DNA of 58,466 bases from Chthonomonadaceae bacterium (GTDB lineage Bacteria > Armatimonadota > Chthonomonadetes > Chthonomonadales > Chthonomonadaceae): assembly GCA_035650735.1 (NCBI GenBank), contig DASRGZ010000094.1, forward strand, positions 1 through 58,466, written 5' to 3'. The notes below the pieces were generated by a model. It was not told where the DNA came from. It saw nothing but the letters and a program-made list of their open reading frames with translations, and searched no databases. A program made the translations under genes and the position numbers. Below, piece after piece: positions 35,790 to 42,022 of the stretch; within the stretch, counting starts at the first letter, position 1; each line of letters starts with the position of its first letter.

Positions 35790-36094
35790 TTGCCGTGTTC
35801 TCCTGAGCTATGCAAGCCAAAACGCACGTTGGGTCTGGCTTTCTGTTCCCTGCCTGACGGCGTTGCTCGCCTGTGATGGGTAGATCGAAAATATGCAGGC
35901 AGCCGTATGCCAGGGAACGTTCCATTATATCATACCGATTCGGCAAGCGTCAACCGAAGGAGGAGAAACGAAAGCAGAGAGGATTGGGAGACGGCAGATC
36001 GCGGCCCCGTCCTGGTGATTCAGGGACGGACAGATGGGTTTTCGGGCGGCTAAAGCCGCAGCAACAAAAGCACAAAGTCGCCCTACGGCGACTG

Positions 36095-36210
36095 CCCTCA
36101 CCCCCTGCCCCCTCTCCCGGCGCTGCGGCAGAGGGGAACGGGGAAGCCGGGTCCCCCCCTTCCCTAGCGAGGGACGAGCGGGTAGGGAAGGGGGACGGGG
36201 GGGTTAGGTG
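36095..36210. repeat. Family B REP-like element lacking the micro-element (empty site)
   Basis: Minus strand GTCCCCC-TT-CCCTAC at about 36196-36182. Confidence 0.8.
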
Positions 36211-36291
36211 GGAGCCCGCGTAGGCGGACTTTGTGCTCTTGTTGCCGCGAATTCATTCGCCCGCTTCCGGTGCGGTAGGAAGCGCGGCCAG

Positions 36292-37425
36292 TCAGCCCGT
36301 ATTTCCGCGCCCGAAGAGACGGCGCCAGCCGGTGCGCGGACGTCCCTGCGGCGGCGAAACCGGAGGCACGGGCGCTCCGCCGACCGAGGCCGGCTGCACC
36401 AGCGACCCGGTTTCCGGCACGTTGGCAAGGGGGCTAAACGATGCGGGCTGCGTCGCCGCGTTGATGATGGCCTGCGCGCCGTTCTCAGCGGCAGCCAGAT
36501 CGGCAGAATGGTAGGTGGGAACGGGCAGCAGGTCGCGTACCGAGATGACGATCACCGTGATATTATCGCGCCCGCCGTGCGCGTTGGCCAGTTCTACCAG
36601 TTGCCGGGCGGCCTCGGACGGCGCGTGGCTGCTGACGATGCGTGCCATCTCCTCGTCGTGGACATGGCCCGTCAGCCCGTCCGAACAGAGCACCCAAATA
36701 TCGCCCACGCGGGTCTGCTCTTCGTAAAAATCGGGCTGGATGGTCGGGGCCGCGCCGATGGAGCGAGTGATGACGTTGCGAAACGGCGACATCTCCGCAT
36801 CGTAGCGCGTGAGCACGCCCGCGCGCACCTGCTCTTCGACCCAGGAATGGTCGTGGGTGATCTGGCGCGGGGTTCTGTCTCGAATGAGATAGGCGCGGCT
36901 ATCGCCCACCTGCGCGATGACGACCCGATCCTCGATGAAGACCGCCGCCGTTAGCGTGGTGCCCATCCCGGCGCGCTCCGGGATCATCTGGGCCAGGGTG
37001 TATATCTTCTCGTTGGTCTGCTCGATGGCCTCGCGCAGCGCCACCTTGAGGTCGGGGGAGGGATGGTCGTAGTAGAGGGCGATCAGATTCTTGAGCATCA
37101 TTTCGCTGGCGATCTGGCCGGCCAGCGCTCCCCCGATGCCATCTCCCACCGCGAACAGGCTGCCGCGCGCCGCCAGGATCGCGGGCACTTCCGGCTCGTA
37201 GAAATCGAACTTGTCCTCGTTATTCTCGCGCACCTGCCCCATGTCGGTTTTGGCGGCGAATTTGAGCAGCGGGATGACGCGCGGCATTTTCGCCTCGTAT
37301 TCGCGCCAGCCGCGCACCAGTTCCTCGCGCGCAAATTTGGCCGTCGTCTCCCGCTCGGATTCCTGCACGTCGCCCGAGTCGCCGAGTGAGCTGCTTGTGC
37401 CAGGGTTGGCGTTGAGTTCGCTCAT
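36292..37425 (-). CDS. PP2C/Stp1-type Ser/Thr phosphatase
   Basis: RENNED, DGIGG, GMGTT, QVGDSRAY, CSDGL, GRDNIT motifs. Confidence 0.96.
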   Translation of the reverse strand: MSELNANPGTSSSLGDSGDVQESERETTAKFAREELVRGWREYEAKMPRVIPLLKFAAKTDMGQVRENNEDKFDFYEPEVPAILAARGSLFAVGDGIGGALAGQIASEMMLKNLIALYYDHPSPDLKVALREAIEQTNEKIYTLAQMIPERAGMGTTLTAAVFIEDRVVIAQVGDSRAYLIRDRTPRQITHDHSWVEEQVRAGVLTRYDAEMSPFRNVITRSIGAAPTIQPDFYEEQTRVGDIWVLCSDGLTGHVHDEEMARIVSSHAPSEAARQLVELANAHGGRDNITVIVISVRDLLPVPTYHSADLAAAENGAQAIINAATQPASFSPLANVPETGSLVQPASVGGAPVPPVSPPQGRPRTGWRRLFGRGNTG

Positions 37426-37441
37426 GCAGTCGTCCCCTATC

Positions 37442-38323
37442 CTATGCCGCCAGCGGAACCAGGTCGCGGACCCAGATGACCATTGCCGTGATGTTATCGT
37501 GACCGCCGCGCTCCTTGGCCAGGTTGACCATTTCCCAGACTGCCTCGGAAGGGCAGGACTTGAGCGCGATCTGGCGTATCTCCTCGTCCTGGAGATAGGC
37601 GGTCAGGCCGTCGGTGCAGAGCACCCAGCGATCAGCTTTCTTGACCAACTCGATGTAGATATCCGGCTCGACGGTAGACTGCGTGCCTATCGAGCGGGTG
37701 ATGACGTTTTTATAGGTGGCGCGCGCGGCCTCTTCTTCGGAGATACGGCCCATGCGCCGCCACTCCTCCACCAGGGAGTGGTCCAGAGTGACCTGGCGTA
37801 TCTGCTCGTCCCGGATCAGGTAGGCACGGCTATCGCCGACCTGGGCGATATAGACCCGGTTGCGCACGAAGGCGGTAACCGTCAGCGTCGTTCCCATTCC
37901 GGAGAGCTCCTGGCGTTTGCTCGCGTAGTTGCGCACGACGCCATTGGCCACCAGGATCGCGTTTTTCAGGGCGGTCTCCACATCAATGGGCGTGCCGTCG
38001 AGGTTTAACTGATTATAATACTTATAGTAGGCTTCGATGAGCGTATTGAGCGCGTGCTCGCTGGCGATCTGGCCATAGGCCGCGCCGCCCATGCCATCGC
38101 AGACCGCGTACAGGCTTCCGCGCTGGGATAGAACCTTGGGATCGTCGGGTTCGTAGAAATCGAACTTGTCCTCATTGTTCTCGCGCTTCATACCCATATC
38201 GGTCTTGGCACCGAACTTGATTTCCGGACGGACGGGCGCCTCCTCCGGCTGTATCAAACCGGCTTTAATTAGCTCATTTGGGTCAAGTATATCCGTCAAC
38301 TCAGAGCTCCGGTCCACCCCCAC
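37442..38323 (-). CDS. PP2C/Stp1-type Ser/Thr phosphatase (start GTG 38323 or TTG 38299)
   Basis: RENNED, CDGMGG, GMGTT, QVGDSRAY, CTDGL, GHDNIT motifs. Confidence 0.95.
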   Translation of the reverse strand: MGVDRSSELTDILDPNELIKAGLIQPEEAPVRPEIKFGAKTDMGMKRENNEDKFDFYEPDDPKVLSQRGSLYAVCDGMGGAAYGQIASEHALNTLIEAYYKYYNQLNLDGTPIDVETALKNAILVANGVVRNYASKRQELSGMGTTLTVTAFVRNRVYIAQVGDSRAYLIRDEQIRQVTLDHSLVEEWRRMGRISEEEAARATYKNVITRSIGTQSTVEPDIYIELVKKADRWVLCTDGLTAYLQDEEIRQIALKSCPSEAVWEMVNLAKERGGHDNITAMVIWVRDLVPLAA

Positions 38324-38403
38324 GCGTGTGGGGAATTAGGAAGCGCCCGTCTCGTTCCACGGAAAGGGGTCGCTCACAGTTCACCCCCGCGCGTGGGGAA
38401 TAG
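38310..38403 (-). CRISPR. Orphan mini-array: two type I-E-like repeats flanking one 38-nt spacer
   Basis: CTATTCCCCACGCGCGGGGGTGAACTG (38403-38377) and TAATTCCCCACACGCGTGGGGGTGGACCG (38338-38310); no cas genes in the window. Confidence 0.7.
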
Positions 38404-38419
38404 CGTTCGTGGCGGCATG

Positions 38420-39511
38420 TCAGGCGCTGGCTTCGTCGCCGGCCTCACCCTCGTCAGGCAGTGGTTCTGCGCCATTTTGCAGCGCGGCTGCCTCCGCGCT
38501 GGCTGGCGGCGCGCCCTCCACCGGCGCCTGCTCGGAGAACACAAACCGGTAGCGGCTCTGGCCAAGCTGGACCTCATCGCCTTCGAGCAGCAGTTGGCGC
38601 TCTCCGGGCGCCAGTCTCTGCCCGTTGACCACCGTGCCGTTTGTGCTGCCCTCGTCGATCAGATAGGTGCCGGTGTTGTCCGTCACTATCGTGGCGTGAC
38701 GGCCGGAAATATAGGGGTCTTTGGGCAGCGACACGGTGTTGCCAGCACGGCGACCAATCGTCATCGTGCCCGTATAGACGGGAATGTCGTCGGAGGGGCC
38801 CTCGATCTTCTGGAGCGTGGCCACCATCGGTCCGGTCGGCTGTTCCGGCGCGGGCTGCGCCTGGGACGCCTCGGCCATTTGCGTGCGCTCCGAGGCCGGG
38901 ACGGCAACGGTCGGCTCCGCCGCGCCCGGAGTGGGCACCGGGCCGGCTCCTGCGATCTCCAGCGTCACCCGCCAGTTGCCGAACTTGAGCGGCATTCCGT
39001 GCACGGCGGGCGTCGGCTGGTTGGGCGGGATGCGGCGGTCGCCCACCTTGGTGCCGTTGCTGCTGCCCAGGTCTTCGACGGTCACCTGGCCGTTCTCGAC
39101 AACGATCCGCGCATGATGGCGCGACACCGTTCCCTCGTTGACCAGCACATCCGTTCCCTGGCGTCCCAGCGTATTGATGCCCTCGCGCAGGCGATAGCGG
39201 CGTCCATCGGCCATATCCACCAGCTCGGCGGCGGGCGTCTCCTCTGCTGGCACCTCGATGGGCTCAGCGCCCGCCGAAGCGAGCAGGAATCCACAGTCGC
39301 CGCAATAGGTCTCGGACACCGGCGTAGTCGCCTTACAGACGGGGCAGGTGATGGTGGCGCCAAGCTGAGTGCGGTAGGCATCGCCGCCCAGGCCGGTGGC
39401 GGGCATCTGCTGGGTCACGCCGACGGCGCCTGCAATTGGGGCAACCGCCGCGCTCTCTGCTGCCGGGCTTCCCGTGGGCGGCATGGCGCGCGTGGGATCT
39501 AGATGACTCAT
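38420..39511 (-). CDS. Zinc-ribbon plus double FHA domain protein
   Basis: CPVC..CGDC; two FHA signatures (LGR..VSRHHA..DLGSSNGT; IGR..ISGRHA..DEGSTNGT). Confidence 0.93.
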   Translation of the reverse strand: MSHLDPTRAMPPTGSPAAESAAVAPIAGAVGVTQQMPATGLGGDAYRTQLGATITCPVCKATTPVSETYCGDCGFLLASAGAEPIEVPAEETPAAELVDMADGRRYRLREGINTLGRQGTDVLVNEGTVSRHHARIVVENGQVTVEDLGSSNGTKVGDRRIPPNQPTPAVHGMPLKFGNWRVTLEIAGAGPVPTPGAAEPTVAVPASERTQMAEASQAQPAPEQPTGPMVATLQKIEGPSDDIPVYTGTMTIGRRAGNTVSLPKDPYISGRHATIVTDNTGTYLIDEGSTNGTVVNGQRLAPGERQLLLEGDEVQLGQSRYRFVFSEQAPVEGAPPASAEAAALQNGAEPLPDEGEAGDEASA

Positions 39512-40881
39512 TTGTGTTTTCCCTGATCGAGGTTATAGATGGTGCCGACGATGGTTTTCTCCACGTCGCCGCCGCTCTGGATGGTCTGCATCGCGGCCTC
39601 GACCTCCCGCGCCCTATCTGCCTGCCCGGCCTGGATCAGAACGGTGCGCGTCCGCTGCAACTCCTGAAGCGCGCCCATCGCCGTCATCTGCTGGGTCCGC
39701 ATGCCCATCATGGTGCGCTGCAAGTTCTGCGACGCCTGGGCGATCTCCAGCTCGTTCCGAACGATCTGGTTGACGTTGGCGGCCAGCAGGCTGCGGTCGT
39801 TGGTAAACTCCAACACGCAATCAGCGCCGGCGCGCTCGGTGCGGTTATTCACCACGTCGTCGTACGTTACCTCCACCCGGGCGACGCGAAATGTGCCGGG
39901 CGGATGGCGATCCAGCTCGAATTCGGCCAGCACTGTTCGCACCGTGCCCCGCTCGATGTCCGGCACGGTGACTTCCACGGTGCGCGGCCCGAACGCGGGC
40001 TGCTGTCCGTAGACCTGGCGCACCTGCGCCCAGCGCGACAGCAGGAAGCGCACCCGCACGTTCTTGGCAACGATGGTCATCAGCGTCTCTAATTCCCGCC
40101 GGTACACCTCCGGCAGCAGGTCGGGCCGCTGGATGTAGTAGTAGTTGCCGCCGCTGCGCCGGGCGATGCCGGCCATCAACTCCTCGTTGTACTCGCTGCC
40201 AAACCCAAGCGCCGTGACGGAGATGCCCTTCGTCTTCTGCTCGGCCACCTGCTGAACGATGGAGTTGTAGTCCTTCAGGCCCGCCGTCGGCTCGCCATCG
40301 GTCAAGAGCAGCACGCGATGCACGTAGCCAGGCGTCTGCGGCATGACGGAGGCGATCTGCATGCAGGCGGCCATCAGTCCATCGTAGAGATTGGTGGTGT
40401 TGCCGACTTCCAGGCGGTGGATATGCTCTTTGACGAGGGCCTTGTTGACGATGCGCCGGGCGGGCATGAGGACATCCACCTGCTCCTCGAAGGTGACGAT
40501 GGAGAGGATGTCGTTGGGTTCGAGCATGTCCACGACGTAATCGCAGGCGCGCTTGACGTATTCGAGCGGCTCGCCTTCCATGCTGCCGGAGCGGTCAATG
40601 CACAGGCAGATATTGATGGGCGCGCGCCGTCCTAGCTGCTGCCCGCTGGCCTTGAGCACGACCAGCGCATGCTCGCGGGAGACCTCGGGGGCCATCGCGT
40701 AGCGATTGCCGGGAATGCACTCCACTTCCAGCGTGGACATCGGGGGCTGCATCACCGTCTGCATGGGGTTTGCGCCCATCTGGGTCGGCATCACGCCCAT
40801 CTGCGTGCGCGGCACCCCCAGAACGGTCGGCGGCACCGCGCCACCGTTCGGTCCGCCCATCTGCTGCGTGCGGTCTTCCAT
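39508..40881 (-). CDS. VWA-domain protein (MIDAS intact)
   Basis: DRSGSM, T, LLTDG; N-terminal TQM repeats. Confidence 0.93.
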   Translation of the reverse strand: MEDRTQQMGGPNGGAVPPTVLGVPRTQMGVMPTQMGANPMQTVMQPPMSTLEVECIPGNRYAMAPEVSREHALVVLKASGQQLGRRAPINICLCIDRSGSMEGEPLEYVKRACDYVVDMLEPNDILSIVTFEEQVDVLMPARRIVNKALVKEHIHRLEVGNTTNLYDGLMAACMQIASVMPQTPGYVHRVLLLTDGEPTAGLKDYNSIVQQVAEQKTKGISVTALGFGSEYNEELMAGIARRSGGNYYYIQRPDLLPEVYRRELETLMTIVAKNVRVRFLLSRWAQVRQVYGQQPAFGPRTVEVTVPDIERGTVRTVLAEFELDRHPPGTFRVARVEVTYDDVVNNRTERAGADCVLEFTNDRSLLAANVNQIVRNELEIAQASQNLQRTMMGMRTQQMTAMGALQELQRTRTVLIQAGQADRAREVEAAMQTIQSGGDVEKTIVGTIYNLDQGKHK

Positions 40882-41008
40882 AATTTTGCCGATCTCCTCC
40901 GTTAAAACTCTCTATGATGCTATCCGGGTAGCACGACAGAGAACGGTAATTCTCTCAATCGCCCCAATTCAAGCTACGATTAGTGCGGCGTTTCCCTATC
41001 CAGCAGCC

Positions 41009-41329
41009 TCAGGCCGATTTTGTCAATTGGGAAGAATGTAGCCGTCTGACAAATTCCGCCATTGTTTCCTCTGCTTCTTCCATGCCACCAAACGTATAAT
41101 GTTTCCAACACACGGCCTCGCCACTCTGAATATCGGCAATTTCCATATCGCATTCGCCGCTATCCCATAGGGTTATCCTGCCTACGTATTCGTCCGTGTC
41201 GAAATCTGCTCGGATGGAGTTTTTGTCCGTATTCTCCGTAGACGGCGACAAAACCGCGTTGATACCATGCCGCTTTAACGTCATTTGATTTGGATTGATC
41301 CACGATTGAAAATAAGCTAGCCAGTTCAT
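41009..41329 (-). CDS. Immunity protein, TriTu-like
   Basis: 106 aa, low GC; GRITLWDSGECDME motif; follows a toxin-like fragment. Confidence 0.65.
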   Translation of the reverse strand: MNWLAYFQSWINPNQMTLKRHGINAVLSPSTENTDKNSIRADFDTDEYVGRITLWDSGECDMEIADIQSGEAVCWKHYTFGGMEEAEETMAEFVRRLHSSQLTKSA

Positions 41330-41430
41330 TTTCCTGACTCTCTATCGCTATCACAACTCACGCTGCAAGGAAATTCACCGCCTCAAGGCGCGAGCCCTGG
41401 CGTGACCTAAACAAACTGAGTTGACGAGAC

Positions 41431-41580
41431 TCAGGGTAACTTCGTTGCCACATGAACAATATTCTGGGCCGGTGGCATTTGTGGAATAGGCAAACCTTTC
41501 CGCGCCGCAAGGCGTCCTTCTAGCGAGTTTGGGCCGGGAATTTTGCCCCATCCACGTTGTGTAGGTACGACAGAAGAAGC
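41431..41580 (-). pseudogene. C-terminal fragment of a TreTu-like polymorphic toxin
   Basis: SSVVPTQRGWGKIPGPNSLEGRLAARKGLPIPQMPPAQNIVHVATKLP*; recalled similarity to the Rhs-CT EF-Tu ADP-ribosyltransferase end. Confidence 0.6.
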
Positions 41581-42022
41581 GTTCATCAGGACTGCCATCC
41601 TTGTTGATGTACTTCCAGGTCGTACCGACAATCTTAGCATCTTGAGAAAGCTGTTCCTCTTCAATAAAGATGACGGTATCTAGATCAATATTCAGACAGC
41701 TATATTCGACGCTAATGTACCGCCCGAGTTGATGGAAGTAGAGGCAATCAGGAAAGAAATAGATCTGTTCCTTGCCAAAGTCTATGCAGTACGGTACAAC
41801 ATTAGACCTGACCGCTGGCGGTAAGAGGCTCAAAATCCGGGCTGGTCTGCGGCGAATAAGACTGGAAGCGCCTGCATGGCGCTTCCAATCATAATTAACC
41901 TCTTCGCGTTCCACCAGCCACAGGCGTTGTCTTCTACCAAGCTCGATCAGAGCCTGGTTCATCTCGTTCCACTGCCGGGTTGTAACCTCGTCCATCTCAT
42001 AGAACAGCGCGGAGACCTTCAT
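41581..42022 (-). pseudogene. Fragment of a conserved hypothetical protein (DUF4236-associated C-terminal region)
   Basis: QIYFFPD..., TWKYINKDGSPDERF; homology-like sequence stops abruptly at about 41580. Confidence 0.5.

What the first reader, a model, noticed from the sequence alone, without database searches (positions are those of the whole stretch)
38299..38420. Orphan type I-E-like repeat-spacer-repeat inside the FHA/PP2C operon, overlapping the phosphatase start
Seen: two repeats of the xTATTCCCCAC..GTGGGGGTG(A/G)ACCG class (29 nt, and a 27-nt degenerate copy) flank a 38-nt spacer TGAGCGACCCCTTTCCGTGGAACGAGACGGGCGCTTCC. They fill the gap between the FHA gene and the first PP2C gene, in the operon's sense orientation, which by established I-E repeat polarity is the Cas6e-cleavable strand. 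No cas gene or leader is present. An in-frame GTG at 38377 reads MSDPFPWNETGAS* and is separated from the PP2C frame only by a TAA at the start of the second repeat. Inference: either Cas6 encoded elsewhere cuts the polycistron and tunes phosphatase expression, or the unit yields a regulatory crRNA-like RNA (compare CreA and solitary repeat units). It may also be only a relic.
Basis: partly seen in the sequence, partly recalled or inferred. Interest (0 to 1): 0.7.

Follow-up and report, generated by a model that had tools for sequence, protein, structure and literature searches.

The report
Stray CRISPR repeats inside signalling operon
Two leftover CRISPR repeats really do sit between two signalling genes, but they belong to a family of such repeats scattered through this bacterium's gene leaders, the enzyme that would cut them is not in its assembled genome, and they look like a misplaced, decaying CRISPR scar and not a working gene switch.

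Summary
The two repeats are real (minus strand, 38377-38403 and 38310-38338, 38 nt apart) and match cas-linked type I-E arrays in relatives. They do not overlap the phosphatase start: 4 of 5 close orthologs begin at the TTG at 38299. There is no leader, no spacer target and no type I-E cas gene in the 97.6%-complete assembly; its one Cas6 belongs to a I-B/III-A locus with another repeat. Related FHA-PP2C junctions lack the unit.

The context is the surprise. The genome holds 31 such repeats in 19 clusters, 17 of them in the sense of the local transcript, while four other repeat families show no strand bias. One ectopic mini-array holds a self-spacer with an AAG PAM. The window's 67-nt period fits the resident I-B array (mostly 64-67), not I-E (61).

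Best reading (0.5): a dispersed I-E repeat duplicated by a misplaced Cas1-Cas2 integration, now decaying, with at most a passive effect on translation. Cas6 control (0.07) and a CreA-like guide (0.03) are unsupported. How the repeats spread, and why in sense, is unexplained. The scan noted sister loci before, in this genome and in another.

The parts
38420..39511 (-). Upstream gene, protein with two FHA domains (363 aa); its stop codon ends at 38420
38377..38403 (-). Repeat 1: degenerate type I-E CRISPR repeat, 27 nt (2 nt short in the loop, weak hairpin, -7.6 kcal/mol). Its G-run is a strong Shine-Dalgarno-like site (-14.0 kcal/mol) for GTG 38377
38339..38376 (-). 38-nt interval: I-B spacer length, not I-E; no target found; origin unresolved (acquired spacer or host DNA)
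38310..38338 (-). Repeat 2: type I-E CRISPR repeat, 29 nt, hairpin as stable as a cas-linked repeat (-11.7 kcal/mol); 8-nt handle has one change; its first three bases are a TAA
38336..38377 (-). 13-codon upstream ORF in the PP2C frame, ended by repeat 2; not the phosphatase N-terminus in 4 of 5 close orthologs
38374..38418 (-). 14-codon upstream ORF starting 1 nt after the FHA stop; its stop overlaps the GTG at 38377 (significance unknown)
38297..38310 (-). Probable ribosome-binding site and start of the first PP2C gene: GGAG (first G is the last base of repeat 2), 7 nt, TTG at 38299; predicted to be mostly paired (mean unpaired probability 0.23)
37442..38299 (-). First PP2C-family phosphatase (285 aa); tandem paralog found in 2 of 42 genomes of the family (G000, G001)
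36292..37425 (-). Second PP2C-family phosphatase (377 aa), the family-wide form

Best explanation
An ectopic, leaderless, decaying CRISPR mini-array with no cognate machinery. Step 1 (shown as a pattern, mechanism unknown): a single type I-E repeat, one of a dispersed family, came to lie in the sense orientation just ahead of the phosphatase ribosome-binding site after this species split from its nearest sampled relative. Step 2 (inferred): a Cas1-Cas2 integrase used that lone repeat as a target, duplicated it and inserted a spacer. The 38-nt length points to the resident type I-B integrase, not a I-E one. Step 3 (shown): the copies have since drifted apart (22 of 29), and no I-E protein is left in the assembly to process or load the RNA. 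Present effect (predicted, not shown): passive and in cis. The repeat 2 hairpin with its flanks partly covers the PP2C ribosome-binding site, and repeat 1 offers a strong but hairpin-buried Shine-Dalgarno site to a 13-codon upstream ORF.
For: Dispersed family: 31 hits of 10 bits or more against 0 in the reversed genome, in 19 strand-clusters beside ordinary genes such as RF2, Tat, YceD, PspA, Fpg, a cold-shock protein and a response regulator. Lone repeats do get expanded here: of 13 neighbouring pairs, 7 have exactly the I-E period of 61, and the C109 mini-array holds a perfect self-spacer whose source is preceded by AAG, the G being given to the repeat. Three pairs have periods 64, 65 and 67 (the window), which is 29 plus 35, 36 and 38; 74 of 79 spacers of the resident I-B array are 35-38 nt. 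Misplaced integration is common in this genome: 125 exact direct-repeat pairs, 70 at period 64-70 and 8 at period 61. No I-E proteins by Pfam search, tblastn or custom profiles. No leader. Unit absent from 19 and from 80 related PP2C loci, overlapping sets, including the nearest relative G001.
Against: A site motif learned from 53 I-B-size scars gives the window no support: best score -0.1 over 28 registers and orientations, against background mean -3.7, background 95th percentile 2.6 and leave-one-out median 5.4. The copies differ by 2 gaps and 5 substitutions, so duplication cannot be proven. The interval begins in frame with a start codon plus Ser-Asp, like 27 of 120 family N-termini, which is unlikely by chance (about 1 in 8000 for TG + Ser/Thr + Asp/Glu in the right frame, post hoc). 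A neutral relic does not explain the strand bias (17 of 19, p 0.0004) or the copy shared with G001. No shuffled control was run for the scar scan.
Confidence: 0.5

Rival explanations
1. Two independent insertions. Repeats 1 and 2 arrived separately and the 38-nt interval is host DNA, possibly a former 5' end of the phosphatase gene; repeat 1 landed on its start codon, and repeat 2 later cut the extension off so that translation restarts at TTG 38299.
For: In-frame GTG-Ser-Asp start; 52 of 120 homologs begin Met-Ser/Thr-Asp/Glu; the PP2C frame is the best-scoring of the six for codon use, though 11% of control spacer frames score as well. 31 of 60 related FHA-PP2C junctions overlap or are 5 nt or less apart. 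Host DNA lies between repeats at other loci: at C69 the 19-nt interval pairs with a downstream arm, and at C109, C127 and C19 hairpin-repeat arms lie between copies. At C32 a repeat abuts an ATG directly. It explains the odd length and the 22 of 29 identity.
Against: 4 of 5 close orthologs, from two branches, start at the TTG column, so an upstream N-terminus is probably not ancestral to this paralog. Likeness to the longer N-terminus of P0005 is weak. No flanking target-site duplications in the family (mean score 11.1 against 11.6 for mismatched flanks).
Confidence: 0.22
2. Selected element without Cas6. The dispersed repeats are kept because the sense strand does something in mRNA: it supplies a Shine-Dalgarno site and a stabilising hairpin, or it is a chromosomal barrier to incoming type I-E systems (decoy for Cas6e, or a cut site in many housekeeping mRNAs). 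The window pair is one such element.
For: Sense in 11 of 12 clusters between co-directional genes, against 22/43, 12/23, 51/98 and 61/132 for four other repeat families (Fisher p 0.006); 9 of 10 non-cas-linked loci examined in six relatives are also sense by my reading, L098 is not. The repeat ends 0 and 3 nt before the starts of the C32 gene and the Fpg gene, where it is the evident ribosome-binding site. One copy is shared with G001 although fourfold-degenerate sites are only 50-65% identical (39% by composition). Scattered copies were seen in 7 relatives without a cas6e match and not, above 25 bits, in the 6 cas6e-positive genomes listed in full. The genome tolerates a self-spacer with a I-E PAM.
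Against: The window unit is found only in this species. The shared copy is in 2 of 30 ortholog loci only, and 3 of G001's 4 loci differ from G000's. The cas6e contrast is a trend in related genomes with only 150 candidates scored each. Stem covariation (92.5% paired) may be inherited from different source arrays. Repeat 1 has lost part of its stem.
Confidence: 0.17
3. One reading: Cas6 encoded elsewhere cuts the polycistronic mRNA at these repeats and tunes phosphatase expression.
For: Sense orientation; repeat 2 folds like a cas-linked repeat; a modelled cut in repeat 2 raises predicted accessibility of the PP2C site from 0.23 to 0.40. A I-E integrase acted recently in this lineage, and the assembly is incomplete.
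Against: No Cas6e. The one Cas6 found is in the I-B/III-A locus with an unrelated repeat; Cas6 enzymes are generally specific for their own repeat (recalled). No conservation at related junctions.
Confidence: 0.07
4. A CreA-like guide RNA: the repeat-spacer-repeat is processed and directs a Cascade to repress a promoter.
For: Anatomy only: two degenerate repeats around a spacer-sized interval.
Against: 0 seed-plus-PAM matches in the genome for I-E or I-B PAMs at 11 or 14 nt, with 0-7 in shuffled controls; best self match 25 of 38, as in shuffles (25-26); not in a cas locus; no I-E Cascade; no sigma-70-type promoter in 37900-41400.
Confidence: 0.03

Closest known systems
Off-target spacer integration giving 'neo-CRISPR' loci (Nivala, Shipman and Church 2018; paper itself not held, seen only through passages of PMC7054753 and 10.1101/148544)
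   Same: Repeat-spacer-repeat away from any leader or cas gene, in a genome with many scars of integrase geometry.
   Different: Here the duplicated target is itself a CRISPR repeat of another subtype, the copies have diverged, and the genome is a natural one; the cited passages describe E. coli over-producing Cas1-Cas2 and call natural cases circumstantial.
Orphan and degenerate CRISPR arrays left after loss of cas genes (PMC8616872, passages)
   Same: I-E repeats without cas genes, decaying copies, a tolerated self-targeting spacer elsewhere in the family.
   Different: No leader; not a former array locus (related junctions are tight gene junctions); 19 scattered clusters, mostly 1-2 copies, with a strong sense bias.
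Solitary repeat units and RNA anti-CRISPRs, Racr (PMC10651486, passages)
   Same: Repeat mimics in intergenic DNA, not linked to cas genes, some right behind a promoter (C69 and C127 loci).
   Different: Racrs were sought and shown in phages and plasmids, and 83% match the host's subtype. These are chromosomal, inside housekeeping transcripts, in a host lacking the subtype; the window unit has two copies and no promoter of its own.
CreA / CreTA repeat-spacer-repeat antitoxin RNAs (10.1101/2024.01.05.574328, passages)
   Same: Two degenerate repeats around a spacer-like stretch.
   Different: CreA lies in a cas locus, partly matches a PAM-flanked promoter and needs the cognate effector; none of the three holds here.
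REP-like dispersed intergenic repeats (recalled; not read)
   Same: Short hairpin scattered between genes, species-specific placement, found nested with other hairpin repeats.
   Different: Sequence is a true I-E repeat; copy number is low; strand bias is strong, whereas four repeat families of the same genome show none; no mobilising enzyme identified.

Membership tests
Type I-E CRISPR array | Repeat sequence and hairpin of the I-E class | tested here: met
Type I-E CRISPR array | Spacer of 32-33 nt (period 61) | tested here: not met
   38 nt, period 67; 120 of 122 I-E spacers in relatives are 32-33 nt
Type I-E CRISPR array | Near-identical repeats | tested here: not met
   22 of 29
Type I-E CRISPR array | Leader before the first repeat | tested here: not met
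   score -22.6 against 14-30 for true leaders
Type I-E CRISPR array | Cognate cas genes in the genome | tested here: not met
   assembly 97.6% complete
Type I-E CRISPR array | Processing into crRNA | not testable with these tools
   needs RNA data
Off-target (neo-CRISPR) integration scar | Repeat-length duplication around a spacer-length insert | tested here: inconclusive
   period 67 fits I-B, but the copies share only 22 of 29
Off-target (neo-CRISPR) integration scar | Site resembles the integrase's preferred target | tested here: inconclusive
   weak motif from 53 scars; window scores at background level
Off-target (neo-CRISPR) integration scar | Insert traceable to a PAM-flanked source | tested here: not met
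   no source for the window interval; met for the C109 sister locus
Off-target (neo-CRISPR) integration scar | Process active in this genome | tested here: met
   125 exact pairs with peaks at periods 61 and 64-70; several inserts match the chromosome
CreA-type regulatory RNA | Two repeat-like sequences around a spacer | tested here: met
CreA-type regulatory RNA | Located in a cas locus with a cognate effector | tested here: not met
CreA-type regulatory RNA | Partial match to a PAM-flanked promoter | tested here: not met
   0 seed-plus-PAM matches
Solitary repeat unit / Racr | Single repeat in a mobile element | tested here: not met
   two copies in a chromosomal operon with conserved FHA-PP2C order
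Solitary repeat unit / Racr | Own promoter directly upstream | tested here: not met
   0 sigma-70-type sites in 37900-41400; other promoter types not covered
Solitary repeat unit / Racr | Binds Cas6 and inhibits interference | not testable with these tools
   needs experiment

The most novel reading that the evidence does not exclude
Type I-E CRISPR repeats have escaped their arrays and become a small dispersed element family in this bacterial family. They settle in the sense strand of mRNA leaders, near ribosome-binding sites that their own 3' half mimics; they are kept as ribosome-binding or stabilising elements, or as a chromosomal barrier that makes any incoming I-E system cut or waste itself on housekeeping mRNAs; and each copy is a seed that two unrelated Cas1-Cas2 integrases (I-E and I-B) can grow into a new array. 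The window unit would be a I-E repeat expanded by a I-B integrase, a natural case of cross-subtype array birth inside an operon.
Probability: 0.2. Interest if true: 0.8.

Novelty: new variant of a known kind. Interest (0 to 1): 0.45.

Why it matters
The unit alone is probably a scar. The family it belongs to bears on an open question, how new CRISPR arrays arise away from existing ones. This genome shows the stages side by side: single repeats, pairs, and three- and four-copy arrays at the I-E period, one with a PAM-correct self-spacer, and three pairs at the period of a second, unrelated system. The strand bias is a clear, unexplained signal that can be tested by inverting or deleting repeats and by supplying Cas6e. 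If the barrier reading held, it would be a host-encoded counterpart of phage RNA anti-CRISPRs; if the translation reading held, it would be a case of CRISPR repeats recruited as ribosome-binding sites.

Tried and rejected
Rfam: no CRISPR family or other convincing match at the unit (3 matches at E 0.8-8, all far below their cut-offs); only 3 tRNAs in 18 sister loci.

Spacer source: exact 25-nt scan of metagenome contigs gave 1 locus, identical to the window over the 315 shared columns, so not an independent case; 0 in viral contigs for an 18-nt piece; phage and plasmid hits only at E 0.5-6; none in 259 fetched loci, including five I-E operons, so no anti-cas spacer.

Expression: no RNA holder listed. 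Strain variants: contigs of 4 DNA runs cover the unit without a difference or a joint that skips it; 2 of the 4 may be the source of this DNA, and contigs drop rare variants.

Translational-bypass idea (Ser codon, stop, hairpin, Ser codon, as in T4 gene 60; recalled): dropped because orthologs start downstream at the TTG column.

Repeats delivered as spacers with a 28-30-nt target duplication: no flanking direct repeats at 19 clusters. Repeats moving with a leader end: 2 of 19 clusters above the 95th percentile, mean not significant (p 0.06). Folding of the 38-nt interval is not unusual (z -1.4).

The Pfam genome search is lossy (its control found Cas6e and Cas7e in only 1 of 14 named genomes, not E. 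coli), so absence rests mainly.

Literature: 8 full-text searches listed no paper on chromosomal, sense-oriented I-E repeats scattered in gene leaders; most subscription papers are not searched, the Nivala paper is not held, and I read no supplements. The DNA upstream of orthologs P0002-P0004 and P0006 could not be obtained, which leaves the origin of the interval open.
Full report
Observation. On the minus strand the FHA gene (38420-39511) is followed by 16 nt, repeat 1 (38377-38403, 27 nt), a 38-nt interval, repeat 2 (38310-38338, 29 nt), 10 nt, and a TTG at 38299. The window is contig C94 of a 6.5-Mb, 224-contig, 97.6%-complete genome; the closest named homologs come from Chthonomonadales, Armatimonadota. 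The repeats are of the I-E class. An exact degenerate pattern occurs in 10 of 60 relatives, mostly as 61-nt-period arrays, with 0 hits for the reversed pattern; Cas6e is found in 14 of 61 genomes searched, and the operon beside one such array is a full I-E set. Repeat 2 folds like a cas-linked repeat (-11.7 kcal/mol each); repeat 1 is weaker (-7.6).

The phosphatase start. The GTG at 38323 is only the first start codon of the mechanical ORF. A codon model trained on this genome chose TTG 38299. The five closest orthologs (58-74% identical) form a separate paralog group, and 4 of the 5 begin Met-Thr at that column, the closest with the same first 15 residues; P0005 is longer. A GGAG lies 7 nt upstream of the TTG (-6.7 kcal/mol against a recalled anti-SD tail, similar to two neighbouring genes). 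So the unit is intergenic and does not overlap the start.

No cognate machinery. Pfam searches found no Cas6e or Cas7e, but their control missed E. coli, so I tested directly. tblastn with the ORFs of five relatives' I-E loci hit only the I-B Cas3 and Cas1 among cas genes, and profiles of seven I-E proteins against 138,802 six-frame segments gave nothing but a cross-hit to the I-B Cas1. The only cas locus found is I-B plus III-A on C93, with an 80-copy array of an unrelated 29-nt repeat and the single Cas6. True I-E leaders in relatives end in a conserved motif; the window scores -22.6 against 14-30.

No conservation, no target. None of 19 relatives' PP2C loci and none of 80 loci from a wider search (the sets overlap) carries the repeat; 31 of the 60 with an adjacent FHA gene have overlapping or nearly touching genes. 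Only G001 shares the tandem phosphatase (2 of 42 genomes), and it has a different hairpin at this junction. The interval has no better self match than its shuffles, no seed-plus-PAM match and no credible phage or plasmid match.

A dispersed family. A profile scan finds 31 copies at 10 bits or more and none in the reversed genome; 13 of them seeded the profile. They form 19 strand-clusters, 18 intergenic, next to ordinary genes; a three-copy variant array on C109 falls below the threshold and was seen separately. Seventeen of 19 are in the sense of the flanking or nearest gene (p 0.0004); between co-directional genes it is 11 of 12, against 22/43, 12/23, 51/98 and 61/132 for four other repeat families (p 0.006). 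The exceptions are a variant pair nested in another hairpin (C19) and a copy far from any called gene (C219). Two clusters lie 23 and 37 nt behind near-consensus promoter hexamers, and two end 0 and 3 nt before a start codon. Gene calls are my own model's. Relatives without a cas6e match have a few such copies: G001 4 loci, G034 2, G043, G038 and G031 1 each, G018 and G019 short arrays; 9 of the 10 loci I could orient are sense. In six cas6e-positive genomes no match above 25 bits lay outside arrays, with only 150 candidates scored per genome. One copy is shared by G000 and G001 at the same gene and absent from 28 other ortholog loci, while fourfold-degenerate sites between the two species are 50-65% identical.

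How pairs form. A lead from earlier notes of this scan, which I retested: the genome has 125 exact direct-repeat pairs at periods 45-95 outside the I-B array, 8 at period 61 (2 of them the C109 array), 70 at 64-70 and 31 at 71-76. Six inserts of the 64-70 class match single sites in the chromosome, 4 of them with CCG directly upstream; one C109 spacer matches C91 perfectly behind AAG, the I-E PAM (recalled). So both a I-E and a I-B-type integrase have written at ectopic sites, the I-E one recently enough to leave identical repeats. Among 13 neighbouring pairs of the I-E-like family, 7 have period 61, two have 60 and 62, one has 48, and three have 64, 65 and 67. The resident I-B array has 35-38-nt spacers in 74 of 79 cases, period 64-67. 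The window is the 67.

Best explanation (0.5). A lone repeat of the dispersed family sat ahead of the phosphatase ribosome-binding site; an integrase, probably the I-B one, duplicated it and inserted 38 nt; the copies then decayed. Shown: the family, its expansion elsewhere, the missing proteins, the missing conservation. Inferred: the duplication here and the enzyme. Against it, a site motif from 53 scars scores the window at background, and the interval opens with an in-frame start plus Ser-Asp like many family N-termini, which favours two insertions around host DNA (0.22); that rival in turn conflicts with the orthologs' downstream start. Any present effect is predicted to be passive: the PP2C site is mostly paired (0.23 unpaired), and repeat 1 offers a -14.0 kcal/mol SD, inside its stem, to a 13-codon upstream ORF. 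A selected role without Cas6 gets 0.17, Cas6 control 0.07 and a CreA-like guide 0.03.

Unexplained. How I-E repeats reach new sites and why in sense. Delivery as a spacer with target duplication and travel with a leader end were tested and not supported. Likeness of the repeat's 3' half to a Shine-Dalgarno site could favour sense insertions near starts, but clusters 70-350 nt from a start are also sense.

Comparison with what is known. It works like an off-target 'neo-CRISPR' scar and an orphan mini-array, and fails membership of a functional I-E array, of CreA and of phage Racrs on tested features. I saw passages only of PMC7054753, 10.1101/148544, PMC10651486, PMC8616872 and 10.1101/2024.01.05.574328, no supplements; the original neo-CRISPR paper is not held. 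Eight searches listed no description of this chromosomal, strand-biased pattern. The scan itself noted sister loci in this genome and a similar case in another, which are leads, not support.

Verdict. Observation partly confirmed, interpretation partly supported, new variant of a known kind, interest 0.45: low for the unit as a switch, raised by the strand-biased family and the possible cross-subtype expansion.

Noticed in passing
G000 genome-wide: 125 exact direct-repeat pairs outside the I-B array, peaking at periods 61, 64-70 and 71-76, mostly intergenic; several inserts match the chromosome, with CCG upstream in 4 of 6 of the 64-70 class. The 64-70 peak (mode 67-68, 30-nt repeats) sits about 2 nt above the resident I-B array (mode 65-66, 29-nt repeat).
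   Followed up: partly
G000:C109:6232-6463 (L082), C19:53145-53307 (L073), C127:16190-16366 (L087): Composite elements: I-E-type repeats nested with inverted arms of an 8-nt tandem hairpin repeat; the C109 array has three identical 28-nt variant repeats and a self-spacer matching C91 behind AAG.
   Followed up: partly
G000:C32:19718-19749 (L074) and C105:11269-11303 (L081): The repeat ends 0 and 3 nt before the start codon, so its G-run is the evident ribosome-binding site; the C32 copy is also present in G001 (L119).
   Followed up: partly
G000:C93:2501-21337 (L259): Type I-B plus type III-A cas locus with an 80-repeat array; Cas1 carries an acidic insertion of about 65 residues, and the Cas10 is short (532 aa, matching model positions 231-753).
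   Followed up: no
G000 genome-wide: A second, more abundant hairpin repeat family (dozens of copies) ends in a 12-nt stretch that differs from the I-E repeat's last 12 nt at one position; it shows no strand bias.
   Followed up: partly
window 36292-38299: Tandem PP2C genes; the upstream paralog has an insertion after the conserved YY and was found in only 2 of 42 genomes of the family.
   Followed up: partly
window 41009-42022: An immunity-protein-like gene (Pfam TriTu) and an ORF without a family sit between the FHA and VWA genes of the operon.
   Followed up: no
window 36043-36263: 54-nt inverted repeat arms, 113 nt apart, just downstream of the second PP2C gene.
   Followed up: no
window 38231-38244 and 38338-38351: 14-nt inverted match (93%) between the end of the 38-nt interval and early PP2C codons; one of 36 inverted pairs in 5 kb, probably chance.
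   Followed up: no
L007 (G001:C12), FHA-PP2C junction: The nearest relative has a different 95-nt hairpin insert at the same junction, suggesting that it is a tolerant site for repeats.
   Followed up: partly
L099 (G034:C4:960480-960640): Three decaying I-E repeats (periods about 64 and 58) between a near-consensus promoter and a long gene whose N-terminus looks like RpoB (recalled, not tested), in a genome without a cas6e match.
   Followed up: partly
G000:C224:43547-43710: A three-copy array of a 29-30-nt host sequence at periods 68 and 66, apparently a scar expanded twice.
   Followed up: no
G000:C219:11949-11977 (L089): A strong lone repeat far from any called gene, behind an A+T-rich stretch; no Rfam match; may mark an uncalled transcript.
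   Followed up: partly
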